The position numbers were made by a program, and so were the translations under genes. A DNA stretch of 59,191 nt, counting the filler. It is 5 parts of 5 records of this genome, joined end to end, with 100 filler letters (N's around TTAATTAATTAA, not from the genome) between each part and the next. Parts side by side here need not be neighbours in the genome. Positions count along the whole stretch, not along the records: positions 1 to 12,225 come from DRR723986_17953; 4 more parts are not named here. One strand, given 5' to 3'. Under the pieces are notes generated by a model. That model was not told the DNA's origin and searched no databases. It saw nothing but the letters and a program-made list of their open reading frames with translations. Below, one piece after another: positions 8,944 through 14,736 of this stretch; position 1 is the first letter of the stretch; each line of letters starts with the position of its first letter.

Positions 8944-10830
8944 CTAGGGCCGCCTAACCTGCGGCGCTATCATCTTCTGCGGATCCAGCAGACTGTCAAG
9001 CGTATCCTGCGAGAGCAAACCCTTCTCCAACACCAACTCGTAAATCCCACGCTTGCTCTCCAGGGCTTCCTGAGCCAAAGCCGAAGATTGCTCATACCCC
9101 AGGATGGGATTTAACGCAGTGACTAGACTTGAGCTGTTGTGAACATAGGACAGACAGATGTCCTCGTTTGCTGTAATGCCCTTGACACAGCGATGTGCCA
9201 GGGTGTTCATTCCGTTCTTCAGCATCTGAACAGACTCAAAGATGCAGGCCCCTATTACAGGCACCATCACATTAAGTTGGAGCTGACCGGCCTCAGATGC
9301 AATGGTGACAGTCAAATTGTTGCCAATAACCTTAAACGCAATTTGATTTACAACCTCGGGAATGACCGGATTAACCTTACCGGGCATGATCGATGAACCC
9401 GGCTGCATTTTTGGCAAATTTATCTCATTGAAGCCCGCAGTCGGCCCGGATGAAAGCAGGCGTAGGTCATTACTGATCTTGGAAAGTTTGGACGCCAGGT
9501 GTTTCAGAGTCGAAGAATACATCACAAACCCGCTCGTATCCTGCGTAGCTTCAATCAGATTTCGCGAGCGGCGCACATTAATTCCACTGATTTCGCGCAA
9601 GTAAGCGATAGCCTTTTCCGTAAAACCTTCCGGTGCATTCAGGCCGGTACCGATGGCCGTGCCTCCAAGGTTTACAGCCAGCAAATAATCGGCATTTGTA
9701 TTCAAATGGTCAATCTCGTCTTCGAGCGTCACAGCAAAAGCTTCAAACTCCTGCCCCAGCGTCATCGGAACTGCATCCTGTAGCTGCGTACGCCCCAGCT
9801 TCAGCACTCCCGCAAATTCTACGGCCTTCTCCCGGAAGACGGCAATCAGATTTTCCAGCGTCTTGACCATCTCGCGATTACTGTAGATAATCGCAACCTT
9901 GAGTGCTGAGGGAATCGCGTCATTCGTCGATTGTGAGCGGTTTACATGGTTCAGCGGATGGCAGTATTTGTACTCTCCACGCGCCTTGCCCATGATTTCA
10001 AGCGCGCGATTCGCCAGGACTTCATTCGCGTTCATATTGATCGAAGTACCGGCGCCACCCTGGATCATATCAAGAATAAACTGGTGATGCAGTTTGCCGT
10101 TGATGATCTCACTGCCCGCTTCCCAGATCGCATCGGCCACCTCCTGGTCAATCAGTCCCAGGTCGGCGTTGGCACGTGCGGCAGACATTTTTACCATCGC
10201 TAGCGCATCAATCAGCCGCGGATAATGTGAAAGCGGAACACCCGTTATGTGGAAGTTTTCCTTGCCGCGCATCGTCTGCACACCATAGTATGCTTCCCAC
10301 GGCACCTTGCGCTCACCCAGTAAATCGTGCTCCGTACGTGTACGGCCGGACACATACTGCGCCGCCTCACGCACCAGATTTGTCGTCGCCTCCTGCATCC
10401 GCCGGGCGATCACCTGCACCAACCGTGGCATCATCTTGAGCTGGATATTGCTGTGCTCGCGGCAGAGCTGCTCAAAACGCTGGCGTGAAAACCATGCTAT
10501 CGTGACTTCGTCCACGGCACGTGCCGTAGTTGCGTGCGGTGATTCATCAAATAAGGCGCCCTCACCCAGGAAGTCACCCTTGCTGAAAGTGATGATCCGT
10601 TCGCTATTGCCAAATGCATTGTTTTTGATCAGCTCAATCCGGCCGTCAATAATTGCGATAAATCGCCGGCGCGCCTCGTTTTCGCGAAACAAATATGACC
10701 CTGCCGGAACGCTCTCAATGCTCATCGCAATTGCAATCTGAGTGTGTTCCTGTCTGCTCAGATCTTGAAACAATTCAATTGCGCTGATGATGTCAATGAT
10801 TCTGGATCCCGGCATGGGCGACTCCAACAA
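8944..10830 (-). CDS. aspA: Aspartate ammonia-lyase with an N-terminal cNMP-binding (Crp-like) domain
   Basis: RTEHDLLG, YYGVQTMR, GGAGTSINMNANEV, GRTQLQDAVP (AspA-type Q) and GSSIMPGKVNP. The first ~150 aa have a cNMP-domain pattern (LFRENE...GDFLGEGAL). Alternative start at ATG 10815. Confidence 0.9.
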   Translation of the reverse strand: MLESPMPGSRIIDIISAIELFQDLSRQEHTQIAIAMSIESVPAGSYLFRENEARRRFIAIIDGRIELIKNNAFGNSERIITFSKGDFLGEGALFDESPHATTARAVDEVTIAWFSRQRFEQLCREHSNIQLKMMPRLVQVIARRMQEATTNLVREAAQYVSGRTRTEHDLLGERKVPWEAYYGVQTMRGKENFHITGVPLSHYPRLIDALAMVKMSAARANADLGLIDQEVADAIWEAGSEIINGKLHHQFILDMIQGGAGTSINMNANEVLANRALEIMGKARGEYKYCHPLNHVNRSQSTNDAIPSALKVAIIYSNREMVKTLENLIAVFREKAVEFAGVLKLGRTQLQDAVPMTLGQEFEAFAVTLEDEIDHLNTNADYLLAVNLGGTAIGTGLNAPEGFTEKAIAYLREISGINVRRSRNLIEATQDTSGFVMYSSTLKHLASKLSKISNDLRLLSSGPTAGFNEINLPKMQPGSSIMPGKVNPVIPEVVNQIAFKVIGNNLTVTIASEAGQLQLNVMVPVIGACIFESVQMLKNGMNTLAHRCVKGITANEDICLSYVHNSSSLVTALNPILGYEQSSALAQEALESKRGIYELVLEKGLLSQDTLDSLLDPQKMIAPQVRRP

Positions 10831-11115
10831 AACCTCAAAGCAATAAAATTCGGCCAGTTTGGCCTGTTTGTGGCATGTAATTTAACATTCATTATCCGAG
10901 CAGCCCGCGTTCAGATAAAAAAAAATTGTCGCTAACGCGCTAAAATCCGCAAAACACCACAAGCGCCGGACGGTAATTTCCCATCCGGCGCTCTGTTTTA
11001 GACTCAAATTGAATCTCCTGTTGACCCTGGTATTCAGCTACATTCCTGGCGGGATTTTCAATCACTTGCTCAGCAGCAAGCGGGTGACTTTGCCTTCCAG
11101 CTGAACGCTCTATCC

Positions 11116-11160
11116 AAAAAACGAAAGGGGGCCACCGCAAATCACGGCCACCCCCATTTC
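11116..11160 (-). terminator. Intrinsic terminator closing the candidate ncRNA
   Basis: Minus strand GAAATGGGGGTGGCCGTG-ATT-TGCGGTGGCCCCCTTTC-GTTTTTT. Confidence 0.7.
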
Positions 11161-11597
11161 CACGTCACTCACATTATCTAAGGCCATCAATCTTGCCGCG
11201 CGCTACTATGCAGTGCAATTCCTATTTCAGCGTCCGGTGGTAAACATCTCCCCAGCCTTCTCCACATCGCCGTCCTTCAGCGCTTTGTCCTGAACGCTTC
11301 ATCCTCAAGGCTTGGTTCTCAAGGTTGCACCGTGGCGTGCGTTCACCATCTCACGACTCTCATATCTCGCGGCAAGTTGGCAAGGAACTCTTGACGATCT
11401 ACACTTCATGCTCCAGGATTAGCCCCCGGGTGTAACAGCTACCGACTGCCTGGTTACGGCTTGCCGGGAGTGACGTCATGGTTCACATCCGGCAGTGAAG
11501 TCTCGCGTAATTTATGTGTTAATGTTCAAGCTTCACTGCTCTGGATGTCTCGTTGAGCAAGACTTTGATTCTTCTGCTATCTCTCGTCTCACTCAAC
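11116..11597 (-). ncRNA. Candidate large structured non-coding RNA (~480 nt), family not recognised
   Basis: No credible ORF. Nested helices: 11586-11597/11552-11563, 11531-11548/11485-11500, 11468-11476/11162-11170, 11460-11465/11379-11384, 11368-11376/11192-11200, 11341-11348/11238-11245. G-U wobbles fit the minus strand. Ends in a terminator. Confidence 0.6.
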
Positions 11598-11890
11598 AGC
11601 AAAATAGCACTTAAACAGCAACTGTTTTATGACGGTTCTCAGCTTTAAAGCTGTTTTTTATCCATGTACTCAGGGGGCATTTCCAATGTGTTAACAGTGA
11701 TTTACAGGTGATTTAGATGCTGAACGCGGCTCATCTGCATTGGCCGCTTTTGAATTTTTTTGTTAGTCACTGCGCTGGAAATCTACAGCAGTGCAGTACG
11801 CTAAAATTCCGCTAGTTGACCGGCCGCAATGCTGGTCTTTACAGGCTCAGTTCAGCGGCAATTGTGTGATGCCTGATCTTTTGTCTGGGC

Positions 11891-11938
11891 GGGTTTTGGT
11901 CCAGGTTTTAGTACAGATTTTAGCATGGGTTTTGGTCC
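11891..11938. repeat. Four degenerate 12-nt tandem units
   Basis: GGGTTTTGGTCC / AGGTTTTAGTAC / AGATTTTAGCAT / GGGTTTTGGTCC. Confidence 0.6.
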
Positions 11939-11973
11939 AAAGATTAACCGAGATATTTAGGGTCGGCTAATTG

Positions 11974-12012
11974 CAGAGCAGCCGCCTGCAAGTCATGCAG
12001 GCGGCTGCTCTG
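11974..12012. repeat. Perfect 17-bp inverted repeat (terminator-like or REP-like hairpin)
   Basis: CAGAGCAGCCGCCTGCA-AGTCA-TGCAGGCGGCTGCTCTG, followed by TTT on the plus strand. Confidence 0.75.
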
Positions 12013-12225
12013 TTTAAGTATAGTGTGAGATCAGCGGTCTGCCTCAGCGGACTAACTTCTGTCATAGCGCCGCCGGAGGTGATGGTCTAGTGGGTAAAGA
12101 GCGAAATTCGGTAACGAACAATTGCATCTTGTATCGTAACGATGTGCATACGGCCTACGTCGATAATTCAGTTAATCGCGCATGGGGTTTGTAGCCCAGT
12201 CATAGAGACTTGGGACTAGAACCAT

Positions 12226-12325
12226 NNNNNNNNNNNNNNNNNNNNNNNNNNNNNNNNNNNNNNNNNNNNTTAATTAATTAANNNNNNNNNNNNNNNNNNN
12301 NNNNNNNNNNNNNNNNNNNNNNNNN
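12226..12325. other. Artificial contig linker
   Basis: N44-TTAATTAATTAA-N44, with stops in all six frames. Confidence 0.98.
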
Positions 12326-13314
12326 GCCACCTTACTGGTAGAAAAGCGGATATACATAATATTTTATTTTGGTTTGTGGACTTGAAAATAGTTAAAGGCA
12401 AATTTTTAGCCAGCTTGAAAAATTGCACTGCAGCGACATTTTAGCCCATTGATGATACTCTGCGGGTCAAATACTGCTTAATATGTTGCTAAATATCCCA
12501 CAATCTCTTTTCTCTACCGGAAGGGCAGCTAACAACAAATTGATTAGACCAAGCGATAGAGTAGCTTGGACTTTACCCCGACTAAGCGTAGAAAGGCCTT
12601 GAGCTCACTAGGTTTAGATTATATCTATACCTATCCAATCCAATTTTTAATTGGTCACCTAGATCAAAATCAATTACAATTCGAAAAGTACAGTTGGGTG
12701 AAGTTGCATCTAGAAATTATTTGGATGCACCCAGCCGATATTACATTCATCCTATTTAACCTTGGCCAATTTGAGCATAGTAAGATTACATCATAGTTGA
12801 ATCTCACATCTACCTTCAGAAGGCAATTAATTACCTTCTGAGGATAACTTTTTAATCGAGTAGCAAAGAAAGGATCCTTGTGAAGAGAACAAGTTTTGCT
12901 TTTTACATAATTAATTCTCCTCCGAATGTAATTTTTCAAGAAAAAATACTTTTTATTTTAAAGAAGTAATACCCTAGAATCCGGCGTTTTTCTGGCAAAA
13001 GCTTAAATCTATCCAAAAAATTATTTAAAAGGCCAAAAGAGGTTAAATAAATATTTTATGTAAGTACTATTTTTTATCTTCAATCTTAAGGTAATATTAA
13101 GATTTAACACAACCATTGACTTAATTTTTTACGTAAACCACTTCCATAGACTAGTTCTTTTGAGATAAGTCCTGAAAAGTTGGCGTGATTTTGGTTTTAG
13201 TATGCATGCATCCTTTTTATAGAAAATTGCATCTACCTAAATAGGAAGCCTTAGAAAGCCAACAACCGGAAAGAAATACCAAACCAATATTATTTACACC
13301 TAAACCCACTAAAT

Positions 13315-14736
13315 ATGAAAACGCTACAAGTACCAAACTGGATGAGAAACTTGATGATGGGCTTTGTCGCTTTGCTTTGGCTTAGCCCATCTGATGCCTC
13401 AGCTGATGACATGAACGGTGTCTCATTTCAAGTATTCTATGACGAACTGATGCCTTATGGTGATTGGGTCAAAGATGGCCGTTATGGCTACGTATGGTTA
13501 CCTGCTGTGTACGATGATTTCCATCCTTATGGAACTAACGGGCACTGGGTAATGACGGAATATGGAAATACCTGGGTTTCGGATTACGATTGGGGTTGGG
13601 CGACATTTCACTACGGTAGATGGTATTATGATGACAATTTCCGTAGCTGGGCTTGGATTCCTGATTATGACTGGGGGCCAGCCTGGGTGGACTGGAGAAC
13701 TGGTGGCGGATATTACGGATGGGCACCTATGGGCCCTGGATTCTCTGTCAGCGTGAGAGTGAACATTCCTTCCCTTTACTGGATCTTTGTGCCACAAAAT
13801 AGATTTGCCTACCGTAATGTGTACAATTACTATGTGCCTTATGCTAAAAGAGTCAAAATCTATAACAATACCACAATCATTAATAACACGGTAGTTTATA
13901 ATAACAACCGATACTATGCAGGACCTTCAAGAAGAGAGATCCAGCGCGTAACTAGATCAACCTATCCTGTACACAGAGTGCAGTCTGCAAGAGCTGCAGG
14001 GAGAAATACTGTAGCCAGAAATACTGTTAATGTATATAGACCAGACTTAAACAGCGGCGGAAGAACAACCACTGCAGCTAGACCTTCTAGAGTACTTGCT
14101 AACGGACAAAGCAGAACGCAACCTGCGTCCGTACCATCCAGAGGAAATAGCAGAACAGAAACTGTATCCGGAAGATCAGCTACTACTCCTGCAGGAACCA
14201 GATCTAGCGAAAGAACTTCCTCTTCCCGTTCTAGCAACTCAGAAGTGAGAACCACTACCCCATCGTCTAGCCGTGGTGGAAGTTTTGAGACAAAGCCGTA
14301 CTCCGGACCTCAAACTAGAACCGCTACGCCTAGCAACTCTAGAAGTAGTGAAACTAGAACTTCTACTCCGTCAAGCAGAGAGTCCCAGACTAGATCTAAT
14401 CCTACGAGAACACAAAGTTCTGCTCCTGCTCAACGATCTAATGAATCTAGAACTCAGCCAGCTCCTACTCAGCGTTCGACTCAGCCAAGAACTCAATCTG
14501 CTCCTGCGCAGCGTTCGACTCAATCTAGGACACAGCCAAGTAGCTCTTCTAGACCTGTAGTAAAGTCTAGTGCACCTACGAGATCAACTCAGTCCAGAAC
14601 TCAGTCTTCCTCGAGTAGATCAACTCCTCAGGTAAAAAGCGCGCCTTCAAGGTCTTCTACCCCTACCAAGAGTTCAAGTAGAACAACTACTAGTTCTTCT
14701 TCAAGAACCACTTCAAAAACAAGAGGAAATAATTAA
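13315..14736 (+). CDS. DUF6600-like secreted protein with a Ser/Arg/Thr-rich disordered tail
   Basis: Signal peptide. PYGDW...YGYVWLP...PY..NGHW...WGWATFHYGRW...WGPAWVDWR..GGYYGWAP. Low-complexity C-terminal half. Confidence 0.8.
   Translation: MKTLQVPNWMRNLMMGFVALLWLSPSDASADDMNGVSFQVFYDELMPYGDWVKDGRYGYVWLPAVYDDFHPYGTNGHWVMTEYGNTWVSDYDWGWATFHYGRWYYDDNFRSWAWIPDYDWGPAWVDWRTGGGYYGWAPMGPGFSVSVRVNIPSLYWIFVPQNRFAYRNVYNYYVPYAKRVKIYNNTTIINNTVVYNNNRYYAGPSRREIQRVTRSTYPVHRVQSARAAGRNTVARNTVNVYRPDLNSGGRTTTAARPSRVLANGQSRTQPASVPSRGNSRTETVSGRSATTPAGTRSSERTSSSRSSNSEVRTTTPSSSRGGSFETKPYSGPQTRTATPSNSRSSETRTSTPSSRESQTRSNPTRTQSSAPAQRSNESRTQPAPTQRSTQPRTQSAPAQRSTQSRTQPSSSSRPVVKSSAPTRSTQSRTQSSSSRSTPQVKSAPSRSSTPTKSSSRTTTSSSSRTTSKTRGNN

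What the first reader, a model, noticed from the sequence alone, without database searches (positions are those of the whole stretch)
11116..11597. Orphan ~480-nt ornate structured RNA with its own terminator, upstream of the cNMP-aspartase
Seen, 5' to 3' on the minus strand: a 12-bp hairpin (GTTGAGTGAGAC/GTCTTGCTCAAC, 2 G-U); a ~16-bp hairpin (ACATCCAGAGCAGTGAAG/CTTCACTGCCGGATGT); then a ~315-nt multibranch domain closed by a perfect 9-bp helix (ACGTCACTC/GAGTGACGT). That domain holds two subdomains closed by GGCAAG/CTTGCC and CTTGCCGCG/CGCGGCAAG. The second has an inner TGGTGAAC/GTTTACCA junction carrying three small hairpins (GCAC/GTGC, CCTTGAG/CTTGAGG, TTCAG/CTGAA), preceded by a GTGA (GNRA) tetraloop. 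A GC stem and U tract follow. All helices nest, wobbles agree on one strand, and there is no credible ORF. I do not see hallmark motifs of RNase P, tmRNA, SRP, 6S, group I/II introns, T-boxes or common riboswitches. Inference: either a stand-alone large ncRNA of a possibly undescribed class or a long attenuator leader of aspA, which starts about 290 nt past the terminator on the same strand. The repeated GGCAAG/CTTGCC segments permit alternative pairings (11460-11466 with 11370-11376), which could be a switch.
Basis: partly seen in the sequence, partly recalled or inferred. Interest (0 to 1): 0.85.

Follow-up and report, generated by a model that had tools for sequence, protein, structure and literature searches.

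The report
Clade-restricted two-hairpin RNA upstream of aspartase
A real but narrowly distributed noncoding element sits in front of an aspartase gene: its two 5' hairpins and its terminators are conserved in two related genomes, whereas the large "ornate" middle domain that drew attention is not conserved and folds no better than shuffled sequence.

Summary
No Rfam family matches. The whole 482 nt folds better than shuffles (z -3.84), but that signal comes from the two 5' hairpins (P1+P2, z -6.87) and the terminator. The 319-nt multibranch domain alone is ordinary (z -0.42).

The RNA is not an orphan. Two related genomes (G093, G091; aspartase 82% identical) carry a homologous element in the same place, just upstream of the same cNMP-domain aspartase. 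These parts are conserved:
- a promoter-like block;
- P1, with an invariant 11-nt loop segment;
- P2, with a compensatory A-U/G-C change and a re-written outer stem;
- a 14-nt block next to terminator hairpin T1;
- a second terminator, T2.

The middle domain is 160 nt shorter in the homologs, and its identity to the window equals that of shuffled sequence (0.38). The 5' strand of the 9-bp closing helix is absent there.

Covariance-model searches of several hundred related genomes and 100 of the 160 aspartase loci found no further credible member.

Best reading: a clade-specific, independently transcribed regulatory RNA with a two-hairpin core. A long aspA leader remains a serious rival. No expression data could be obtained.

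The parts
11725..11751 (-). Conserved upstream block with a short inverted repeat (GCGGC...GCCGC), about 150 nt before P1. It may be an operator, or part of the transcript if the start lies further upstream.
   Evidence: Aligned and largely invariant in window, G093 and G091. The stretch from this block to P1 is 0.65 identical between window and G093, against 0.38-0.45 for non-conserved spacers.
11599..11618 (-). Promoter-like block ending in TAnTTTGC just before P1.
   Evidence: Conserved in all three sequences. The likeness to a Bacteroidota-type -7 element is recalled and was not tested. The sigma-70 scan found no site here.
11552..11597 (-). P1 hairpin: 12 bp in the window and 9 bp in the homologs. 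An 11-nt segment of the loop, GAAGAAUCAAA, is invariant.
   Evidence: Folds. Pair counts: 11 pairs, of which 7 are invariant, 3 change on one side (the window's U-G and G-U become C-G and G-C) and 1 changes on both sides.
11485..11548 (-). P2 hairpin. The inner stem is conserved (GUGAAGCUYG / CGRGACUUCAC), the apical loop is A/U-rich, and the outer stem has a different sequence in the homologs but still pairs.
   Evidence: 11 inner pairs are 100% paired, with one A-U to G-C double change. The homologs fold into the same hairpin architecture.
11173..11484 (-). Variable middle domain.
   Evidence: Folding z -0.42. It is 322 nt in the window against 157 nt in G093 and G091, with identity 0.38 equal to the shuffled mean of 0.383. 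A single-sequence model of the subdomain found nothing credible in 86 genomes or in L001.
11159..11172 (-). Invariant 14-nt block GUGAGUGACGUGGA just 5' of T1. In the window it forms the 3' strand of the 9-bp closing helix.
   Evidence: Identical in all three sequences. Its pairing partner ACGUCACUC is present only in the window.
11116..11158 (-). T1: a GC-rich hairpin. A U tract follows it in the window only.
   Evidence: The hairpin is conserved in the homologs, with its G5/C5 base invariant and its top re-written, but no U tract follows it there.
10942..10993 (-). T2: a second terminator hairpin of 13-15 bp followed by U-rich tracts, conserved in all three genomes.
   Evidence: Segment identity between window and G093 is 0.74.
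10876..10893 (-). Conserved block (AATGAATGTTAAATTACA in the window) between T2 and the aspartase start. It may be the aspartase gene's own promoter or operator.
   Evidence: Conserved in the three sequences. It is absent from the 107-nt upstream region of the aspartase gene in G001/L001. Its function is inferred only.
8944..10815 (-). cNMP-binding-domain aspartate ammonia-lyase, the downstream neighbour.
   Evidence: Pfam finds cNMP_binding, Lyase_1 and FumaraseC_C. It is 82% identical (509 of 622) to the G093 orthologue, aligned from the shared MPGSR start.

Best explanation
**What it is.** I read this as a clade-specific, independently transcribed noncoding RNA gene next to the cNMP-aspartase gene. 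The transcript would start near 11597, or possibly further upstream. It would end at T1 (11116) and/or T2 (about 10950).

**How it is built.** The functional core is a 5' module of two hairpins. P1 presents an invariant purine-rich 11-nt loop segment. P2 presents a conserved inner stem and apical region. A 14-nt invariant block sits beside the T1 hairpin. The 150-320 nt between them is a fast-evolving spacer, not a conserved ornate fold.

**How it most likely works.** The conserved single-stranded loop segments would act as contact sites for a target mRNA or a protein, in the manner of a trans-acting bacterial sRNA.

**Shown:** the sequence features, their conservation, limited covariation and the terminator signals.

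**Inferred:** transcription itself, the ends, the independence from aspA and the mode of action.
For: **Homologs in the same place**
- G093 and G091 were the only long matches among 151 relatives of G001 searched with the RNA as DNA: 110 nt at 73% (E 9e-6) and 124 nt at 69% (E 7e-4).
- In both, the element lies directly upstream of the orthologous aspartase on the same strand.

**Selective conservation, window against G093**
- P1-P2 0.70, 14-nt block plus T1 0.75, T2 0.74.
- Middle domain 0.38 and T1-T2 spacer 0.46, both equal to shuffled sequence. aspA four-fold sites are at 0.40.
- In the close pair G093/G091, P1-P2 is 105/108 identical, against 283/322 at four-fold sites.

**Pairing in P1 and P2**
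- 98.7% of cells are paired and 4 of 25 pairs change on both sides. Slid controls give 29-45% paired.
- G-U pairs in the window's P1 and in the P2 inner stem fit this strand.

**Independence from aspA**
- Two terminator hairpins lie between the RNA and aspA. T2 has a U-rich tail in all three genomes.
- A conserved block follows T2, ahead of aspA.

**Not coding, not a known family**
- No ORF and no Pfam signal.
- No Rfam match.
Against: - No expression data: no sequencing run could be listed.
- There are only three sequences, effectively two lineages. The structure was derived from them, so the covariation evidence is thin.
- Folding energy does not fix the strand. The G093 antisense strand folds at -51.5 kcal/mol (z -3.02) against -44.8 (z -2.21) for the sense strand. 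The window's antisense P1-P2 has z -4.63.
- T1 has no U tract in G093 and G091, so the 3' end is uncertain.
- The element always sits in front of aspA on the same strand, which fits a leader equally well.
- Conservation extends about 150 nt upstream of the proposed start, so the 5' end is uncertain.
- No target or binding protein is identified.
Confidence: 0.45

Rival explanations
1. A long 5' leader of the aspartase gene. Transcription would start before P1. The P1-P2 module would bind a protein or small molecule and set read-through of the tandem terminators T1 and T2 into aspA.
For: - The element is on the same strand as the cNMP-aspartase and immediately upstream of it in 3 of 3 genomes that carry it.
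- Two terminator hairpins stand in series before the gene.
- The 14-nt invariant block abuts the 5' side of T1, where an anti-terminator strand would be expected.
- In 5 of 5 other relatives tested there was no fused aspartase, so RNA and fused gene may travel together within this clade.
Against: - I found no conserved alternative (anti-terminator) pairing. The only strong partner of the 14-nt block, ACGUCACUC, exists in the window alone.
- The leader would be about 780 nt long with an unconserved core.
- A conserved block after T2 could be aspA's own promoter.
- None of the 160 other cNMP-aspartase loci has a sequence match (nhmmer), and 0 of the 100 tested with the P1-P2 model match.
- The syntenic relative G001 has only 107 nt and no such element before the gene.
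- The three carriers are close kin, so the shared position may be plain synteny.
Confidence: 0.3
2. There is no functional RNA. The conserved pieces would be DNA-level signals, namely operators and promoters for aspA or for the upstream gene, plus ordinary terminators. The helices of the middle domain would be chance.
For: - The middle domain folds like shuffled sequence and is not conserved.
- A perfect 9-bp long-range helix is not rare by chance in 480 nt. My own rough estimate is about 0.4 expected perfect Watson-Crick 9-mers; this was not computed by a tool.
- Conservation reaches about 150 nt upstream of P1 and includes an inverted repeat typical of protein-binding DNA.
- Both strands of P1-P2 fold well.
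Against: - The window's P1 and the P2 inner stem use G-U pairs, which would be mismatches in a DNA palindrome.
- The P2 outer stem is re-written but still pairs.
- 4 of 25 pairs change on both sides.
- P1-P2 is more conserved than four-fold sites in the close pair, 0.97 against 0.88.
- P1 and P2 are long stems with large conserved loops, which is unusual for operators.
Confidence: 0.2
3. The window-specific extra ~160-185 nt (subdomain 11192-11376, bounded by the inverted repeat CUUGCCGCG/CGCGGCAAG) is an inserted element or a lineage-specific expansion inside an older, shorter RNA. This is compatible with any of the readings above.
For: - The distance from P1 to the 14-nt block is 423 nt in the window against 263 nt in G093 and G091.
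- The subdomain is bounded by inverted-repeat arms of 14 nt at 86% complementarity, with a 9-bp perfect core.
- On its own it folds somewhat better than shuffles: z -2.30, 2 of 200.
Against: - There is no second copy in the 59-kb window.
- There is no match in phage or plasmid collections or in the 151 relatives searched by DNA.
- I saw no target-site duplication on reading the flanks.
- The rest of the middle domain is also unalignable, so a single clean insertion cannot be demonstrated.
Confidence: 0.3

Closest known systems
Trans-acting bacterial sRNA genes with their own promoter and intrinsic terminator (general kind)
   Same: - A promoter-like block, conserved hairpins with invariant single-stranded loop segments and terminator hairpins with U tracts.
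- No coding potential.
- A narrow phylogenetic range.
   Different: - It is much longer than typical sRNAs: about 480-650 nt in the window and about 310-480 nt in the homologs.
- It has a large unconserved middle.
- No target or chaperone is known, and expression is not shown.
Chlorobi-1 RNA motif (Rfam RF01696). Its architecture of two stem-loops followed by a terminator, in a neighbouring lineage, is recalled from memory.
   Same: The overall layout of two 5' hairpins followed by a terminator, with unknown function, in the Chlorobi/Ignavibacteria/Kapabacteria neighbourhood.
   Different: - No Rfam model, this one included, matched the window's 10500-13500 region or the G093 locus anywhere near its gathering score at E up to 10.
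- The sizes differ.
- It is not a member.
Large 'ornate' bacterial RNAs (OLE, GOLLD, ROOL, HEARO, raiA), all Rfam families
   Same: Length of several hundred nucleotides, and a many-helix fold predicted from the single sequence.
   Different: - No Rfam match.
- The many-helix domain is neither thermodynamically unusual nor conserved. The defining property of those classes is a conserved, covarying multi-stem architecture.
Terminator/anti-terminator leaders (riboswitches, T-boxes, protein-dependent attenuators)
   Same: The position upstream of a metabolic gene on the same strand, a conserved 5' structured module and downstream terminator hairpins.
   Different: - No conserved mutually exclusive pairing was found.
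- There are two terminators and a possible promoter before the gene.
- No known aptamer or T-box signature was found by Rfam.

Membership tests
Any Rfam 15 family | Covariance-model score at or above the family's gathering threshold. | tested here: not met
   - 0 matches in the whole window at gathering thresholds.
- At E up to 10 in 10500-13500 there are 2 matches, neither within 11116-11597 and both far below threshold.
- The G093 locus gives 6 matches at E up to 10, the best at 21.4 bits against a threshold of 45.
Intrinsic (Rho-independent) terminator | A GC-rich hairpin directly followed by a U tract on the transcribed strand. | tested here: met
   - T1 in the window: hairpin plus UUUCGUUUUUU.
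- T2 has U-rich tails in all three genomes.
- T1 in G093 and G091 keeps the hairpin but has no U tract, so the feature is not met there.
Conserved structured ncRNA (a new family in the Rfam sense) | Homologs in several lineages with covariation that supports the helices. | tested here: inconclusive
   - There are 3 sequences, effectively 2 lineages.
- P1 and P2: 4 of 25 pairs change on both sides and 98.7% of cells are paired.
- No further credible member was found in 151 relatives, 151 genomes of the class or 151 of the order. These sets overlap.
- The middle domain has no support.
Large ornate RNA classes (OLE/GOLLD/ROOL-like) | A multi-stem architecture conserved across homologs. | tested here: not met
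   - The middle domain is 322 nt against 157 nt in the homologs.
- Its identity of 0.38 equals the shuffled mean of 0.383.
- The 5' strand of the closing helix is absent in the homologs.
- Folding z is -0.42.
Riboswitch or attenuator leader of aspA | A conserved alternative pairing that excludes the terminator, and no promoter between the element and the gene. | tested here: inconclusive
   - I saw no conserved anti-terminator pairing in the alignments.
- A conserved block after T2 may be a promoter, but these tools cannot test for a promoter there.
CsrB/RsmZ-type CsrA sponge RNA | Enrichment of GGA motifs, typically in hairpin loops. | tested here: not met
   - GGA count is 10 against a shuffled mean of 11.1 in the 482 nt, 16 against 14.7 when counted out to T2, and 9 against 8.3 in G093.
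- CsrA itself is encoded in 3 of 3 genomes tested: G091, G093 and G001.
Small-protein gene or leader peptide | An ORF conserved in frame between homologs. | tested here: not met
   - All frames are broken.
- A short frame across P1-P2 shares only the residues encoded by the invariant loop nucleotides, and the frames across T2 differ between window and G093. I read both.
- No Pfam signal.
MITE-like insertion (subdomain 11192-11376) | Terminal inverted repeats, a target-site duplication and multiple copies. | tested here: inconclusive
   - Inverted-repeat arms are present.
- I saw no duplication in the flanks.
- No other copy lies in the 59-kb window. The whole genome is not available.

The most novel reading that the evidence does not exclude
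The two-hairpin module would be the sensor of a previously undescribed class of cis-regulatory RNA. Through the invariant 14-nt block beside T1 and the tandem terminators, it would set expression of the sensor-domain-fused aspartase. That would give this unstudied enzyme a second, RNA-level layer of signal control. The window's enlarged middle domain would be a lineage-specific structural expansion of that RNA.
Probability: 0.15. Interest if true: 0.6.

Novelty: new member of a known kind. Interest (0 to 1): 0.3.

Why it matters
If it is expressed, this is an undescribed noncoding RNA family in a poorly studied, uncultured branch near the Kapabacteria. It is tied by position to an unstudied aspartase that carries a CRP-like sensor domain, so it could mark a regulatory circuit for aspartate and fumarate metabolism in these sediment bacteria.

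The check also gives a practical warning. An impressive many-helix fold read from one sequence can be thermodynamically ordinary and evolutionarily unconstrained. Here the conserved signal sits in two plain hairpins and the terminators.

The narrow range of three genomes and the lack of any expression or functional evidence limit the importance for now.

Tried and rejected
**Known families.** Rfam was negative at gathering and at E up to 10 on the window, and at E up to 10 on the G093 locus. ARAGORN found no tRNA or tmRNA in the window.

**Expression.** No RNA holder was listed, and no sequencing run of any kind was listed. This is no evidence either way.

**Homologs beside other cNMP-aspartase genes**
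- nhmmer found 0 hits in 80 genome loci and 0 in all 160 genome and metagenome loci.
- A permissive blastn gave 4 weak hits (E 0.78-5.6). The two I inspected, L029 and L008, lie inside a coding region.
- The P1-P2 model found 0 hits in L001-L100. L101-L160 were not searched with it.

**Other collections**
- Phages and plasmids: no match.
- Viral contigs: two motif scans gave 1 and 9 stretches. None is a model match; the best is 13.4 bits at E 0.074 over 20 nt.

**Model of the 190-nt subdomain**
- 2 of 86 genomes in the phylum of G002 matched at E 0.33 and 1.0, which is not credible.
- Nothing credible in L001.

**Weak P1-P2 model hits, rejected**
- G232 (E 0.058) lies inside a 600-aa ORF.
- G322 (E 3.9e-4) overlaps the end of a beta-lactamase-family ORF and is not near an aspartase.

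**Other readings tested**
- Pseudogene or small protein: rejected.
- CsrA sponge: rejected, because GGA motifs are not enriched.
- Second copies in the window: none.
- The two G093 copies are one 4.5-kb stretch assembled twice, 100% identical, so they count once.
- A sigma-54 promoter, and pairing between the conserved loops and the aspA start region, were considered by eye only and dropped.

**Earlier notes of this scan.** No note exists on this place or on this RNA sequence.

**Literature.** Two full-text searches were run: 'aspA' + 'riboswitch' + 'aspartate ammonia-lyase', and 'Kapabacteria' + 'noncoding RNA'. They gave 9 and 0 papers. I read passages of one, PMC3543383; its hits were on 'asparagine' and unrelated riboswitches. 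The other 8 I saw only as listings. None concerns such an RNA by title or abstract start. Supplementary files were not consulted.

Full report
**1. The observation**

On the minus strand the listed helices are present:
- P1, 11597-11552, 12 bp with two G-U pairs.
- P2, 11548-11485.
- A perfect 9-bp long-range helix, 11476-11468 with 11170-11162.
- The helix CUUGCCGCG/CGCGGCAAG, 11376-11368 with 11200-11192, around an inner junction with three small hairpins.
- A GC-rich hairpin with a U tract ending at 11116.

The minimum-energy and centroid folds reproduce all of these except the GGCAAG/CUUGCC helix.

Folding energies split the element in two:

| Stretch | Result |
|---|---|
| Whole 482 nt, minus strand | -172.4 kcal/mol, z -3.84, 0 of 100 shuffles as good |
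| Whole 482 nt, plus strand | z -1.15 |
| P1+P2 alone | z -6.87, 0 of 200 |
| 319-nt multibranch domain | z -0.42, 31 of 100 shuffles as good |
| 190-nt second subdomain | z -2.30, 2 of 200 |

So the signal comes from the hairpins at the two ends.

**2. Context**

- The window is a chain of contigs joined by N-runs around TTAATTAATTAA at 12270, 24196, 39074 and 51110. The RNA's contig therefore ends at 12225, and the ORF-free gap up to 13315 is artificial.
- From 10815 to 12225 all six frames are broken. The ten longest stop-free stretches have no Pfam match better than E 0.11.
- Downstream on the same strand lies an aspartate ammonia-lyase with an N-terminal cNMP-binding domain. Earlier notes of this scan describe this fusion in other genomes.
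- A second terminator-like hairpin, T2 (10993-10961, 13 pairs, then a U-rich tail), lies between the RNA and the gene.
- No whole genome is held for the window.

**3. Known families**

- Rfam 15 gives no match at gathering thresholds in the whole window.
- At E up to 10 in 10500-13500 nothing falls within the element.
- ARAGORN finds nothing in the window.

**4. Homologs**

*Where none were found*
- I fetched 160 loci around the closest cNMP-aspartase genes from genome and metagenome collections. The best was 65% identical. None holds the RNA by nhmmer.
- L001, labelled Candidatus Kapaibacterium, is the one locus that shares the downstream synteny of OmpA-like, DoxX and response-regulator/oxidoreductase genes. 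It has a DUF1684 gene 107 nt before its aspartase gene and no such element.

*Where they were found*
- I searched the RNA as DNA in 151 whole genomes related to that MAG. This gave two long matches, G093 (110 nt, 73%, E 9e-6) and G091 (124 nt, 69%, E 7e-4). The other 18 genomes with E up to 0.1 have 18-35-nt matches.
- In both genomes the match lies directly upstream of an aspartase that begins MPGSR like the window's. The G093 protein is 82% identical, 509 of 622.
- G093's two copies are one stretch assembled twice.
- G091 and G093 are about 90% identical to each other across the region.

*Searches with the P1-P2 covariance model*
- The three members score 125-164 bits.
- It found no further credible member in 151 relatives (3 of 151 at E up to 0.1; the third, G232, lies inside a 600-aa ORF).
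- It found none in 151 genomes of the class (G322, E 3.9e-4, overlaps the end of a beta-lactamase-family ORF).
- It found none in 151 genomes of the order. These three sets overlap.
- It found none in aspartase loci L001-L100 or in ten viral contigs picked by motif.
- Five other relatives have only unfused aspartase or fumarase homologs.
- The element was therefore found in the window plus 2 genomes of those searched, always beside the fused aspartase.

**5. What is conserved**

Anchored alignments and segment identities, window against G093:

| Segment | Identity, window vs G093 |
|---|---|
| Upstream block to P1 | 0.65 |
| P1-P2 | 0.70 |
| Middle domain | 0.38 (shuffled mean 0.383, sd 0.011) |
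| 14-nt block plus T1 | 0.75 |
| T1-T2 spacer | 0.46 (shuffled mean 0.451) |
| T2 | 0.74 |
| T2 to start codon | 0.55 |
| aspA four-fold sites | 0.40 (102 of 254) |

- In the close pair G093/G091, P1-P2 is 105/108 identical against 283/322 at four-fold sites. The middle domain, at 0.91, is near the neutral level.
- The distance from P1 to the 14-nt block is 423 nt in the window and 263 nt in both homologs.
- The 14-nt block GUGAGUGACGUGGA is invariant. Its partner in the window's 9-bp closing helix has no counterpart in the homologs.
- The multibranch domain, including the proposed GGCAAG/CUUGCC switch, is thus not a conserved structure. It is either a free-evolving spacer or, in part, a window-specific insertion or expansion. 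The 185-nt subdomain is bounded by inverted-repeat arms, but I found no other copy.

**6. Support for P1, P2, T1 and T2 as RNA structures**

- On the three-sequence alignment, 25 chosen pairs are 98.7% paired. Four change on both sides and several change from G-U to G-C. Slid controls give 29-45% paired.
- The homologs fold into the same two-hairpin architecture, although the P2 outer stem has a different sequence.
- The P1 loop keeps an invariant 11-nt segment, GAAGAAUCAAA. The P2 inner stem and apical region are nearly invariant.
- T1 keeps its G5/C5 base with a re-written top, but a U tract follows it only in the window. T2 is kept with U-rich tails in all three.
- Caveats:
  - There are effectively two lineages, and the structure was derived from these sequences.
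  - Energy does not settle the strand, because the G093 antisense strand folds better than the sense strand.
  - The strand assignment rests on the G-U pairs, the U tracts and the promoter-like block TAnTTTGC conserved just before P1. The likeness of that block to a Bacteroidota -7 element is recalled, not tested.

**7. Mechanism**

- I rank highest (0.45) an independently transcribed, clade-specific regulatory RNA. Its working parts would be the P1 and P2 loops and the 14-nt block, and it would end at T1 and/or T2. Two terminators and a conserved block (10893-10876) stand between it and aspA, which suggests the gene has its own promoter.
- A long aspA leader with tandem attenuators (0.30) fits the constant position and the placement of the invariant block against T1. 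It lacks any conserved anti-terminator pairing and needs a leader of about 780 nt with an unconstrained core.
- A purely DNA-level explanation (0.20) fits the ordinary middle domain and the conservation upstream of P1. It fits the G-U pairs and double changes poorly.
- A CsrA-sponge reading is rejected, since GGA is not enriched, although CsrA is encoded in these genomes.
- A conserved peptide is rejected (and my reading).

**8. Comparison and novelty**

- It works most like an ordinary promoter-to-terminator sRNA gene, or else a leader.
- By layout it recalls the Chlorobi-1 motif of two hairpins plus a terminator. That likeness is from memory, and no Rfam model matches.
- It does not meet the defining feature of the large ornate RNA classes, which is a conserved multi-stem architecture.
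- Two literature searches found nothing on such an RNA. No sequencing run could be listed, so expression is untested.
- I file it as a new member of a known kind, with modest interest (0.3). What remains is a candidate small family of three sequences and unknown function, not a large new structured-RNA class.

Noticed in passing
window 12226-12325, 24196, 39074, 51110: The window is a chain of separate contigs joined by runs of N around the six-frame stop linker TTAATTAATTAA. Neighbourhood arguments must not cross these joints.
   Followed up: yes
window 11974-12012: A perfect 17-bp inverted repeat with a 5-nt loop lies about 380 nt upstream of P1. The 150-nt windows that cover it fold with z -6 to -8 on the minus strand and -4 to -6 on the plus strand. 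It may be the terminator of a gene lost beyond the contig end.
   Followed up: no
window about 11890-11935 (minus strand); L177:3960-4015: Short direct repeats lie upstream of the element: GGACCAAAACCC twice in the window and GTTCACCCAAAAC four times in G093, in the same relative place. G091 lacks them. They could be protein-binding repeats or slippage products.
   Followed up: partly
window 8944-10815 (minus strand): An aspartate ammonia-lyase is fused to an N-terminal cNMP-binding domain. Earlier notes of this scan describe the same fusion in other genomes. The start conserved with G093 is the ATG at 10815 rather than the upstream TTG at 10830.
   Followed up: partly
G093:C16:138000-142500 and G093:C41:2190-6690 (L176, L177): The same 4.5 kb is present twice in this assembly on two contigs at 100% identity. 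This is assembly or binning redundancy, so copy counts from this genome should be halved.
   Followed up: yes
L177:2315-3928: In G093 the gene upstream of the element encodes a fusion of a pseudouridine synthase domain and a SAM-dependent methyltransferase domain. The window's contig ends before the corresponding position.
   Followed up: no
window 12030-12225: The last 200 nt of the contig are noncoding and have no Rfam or tRNA match. The contig break here may mark a repeat or a mobile element.
   Followed up: no
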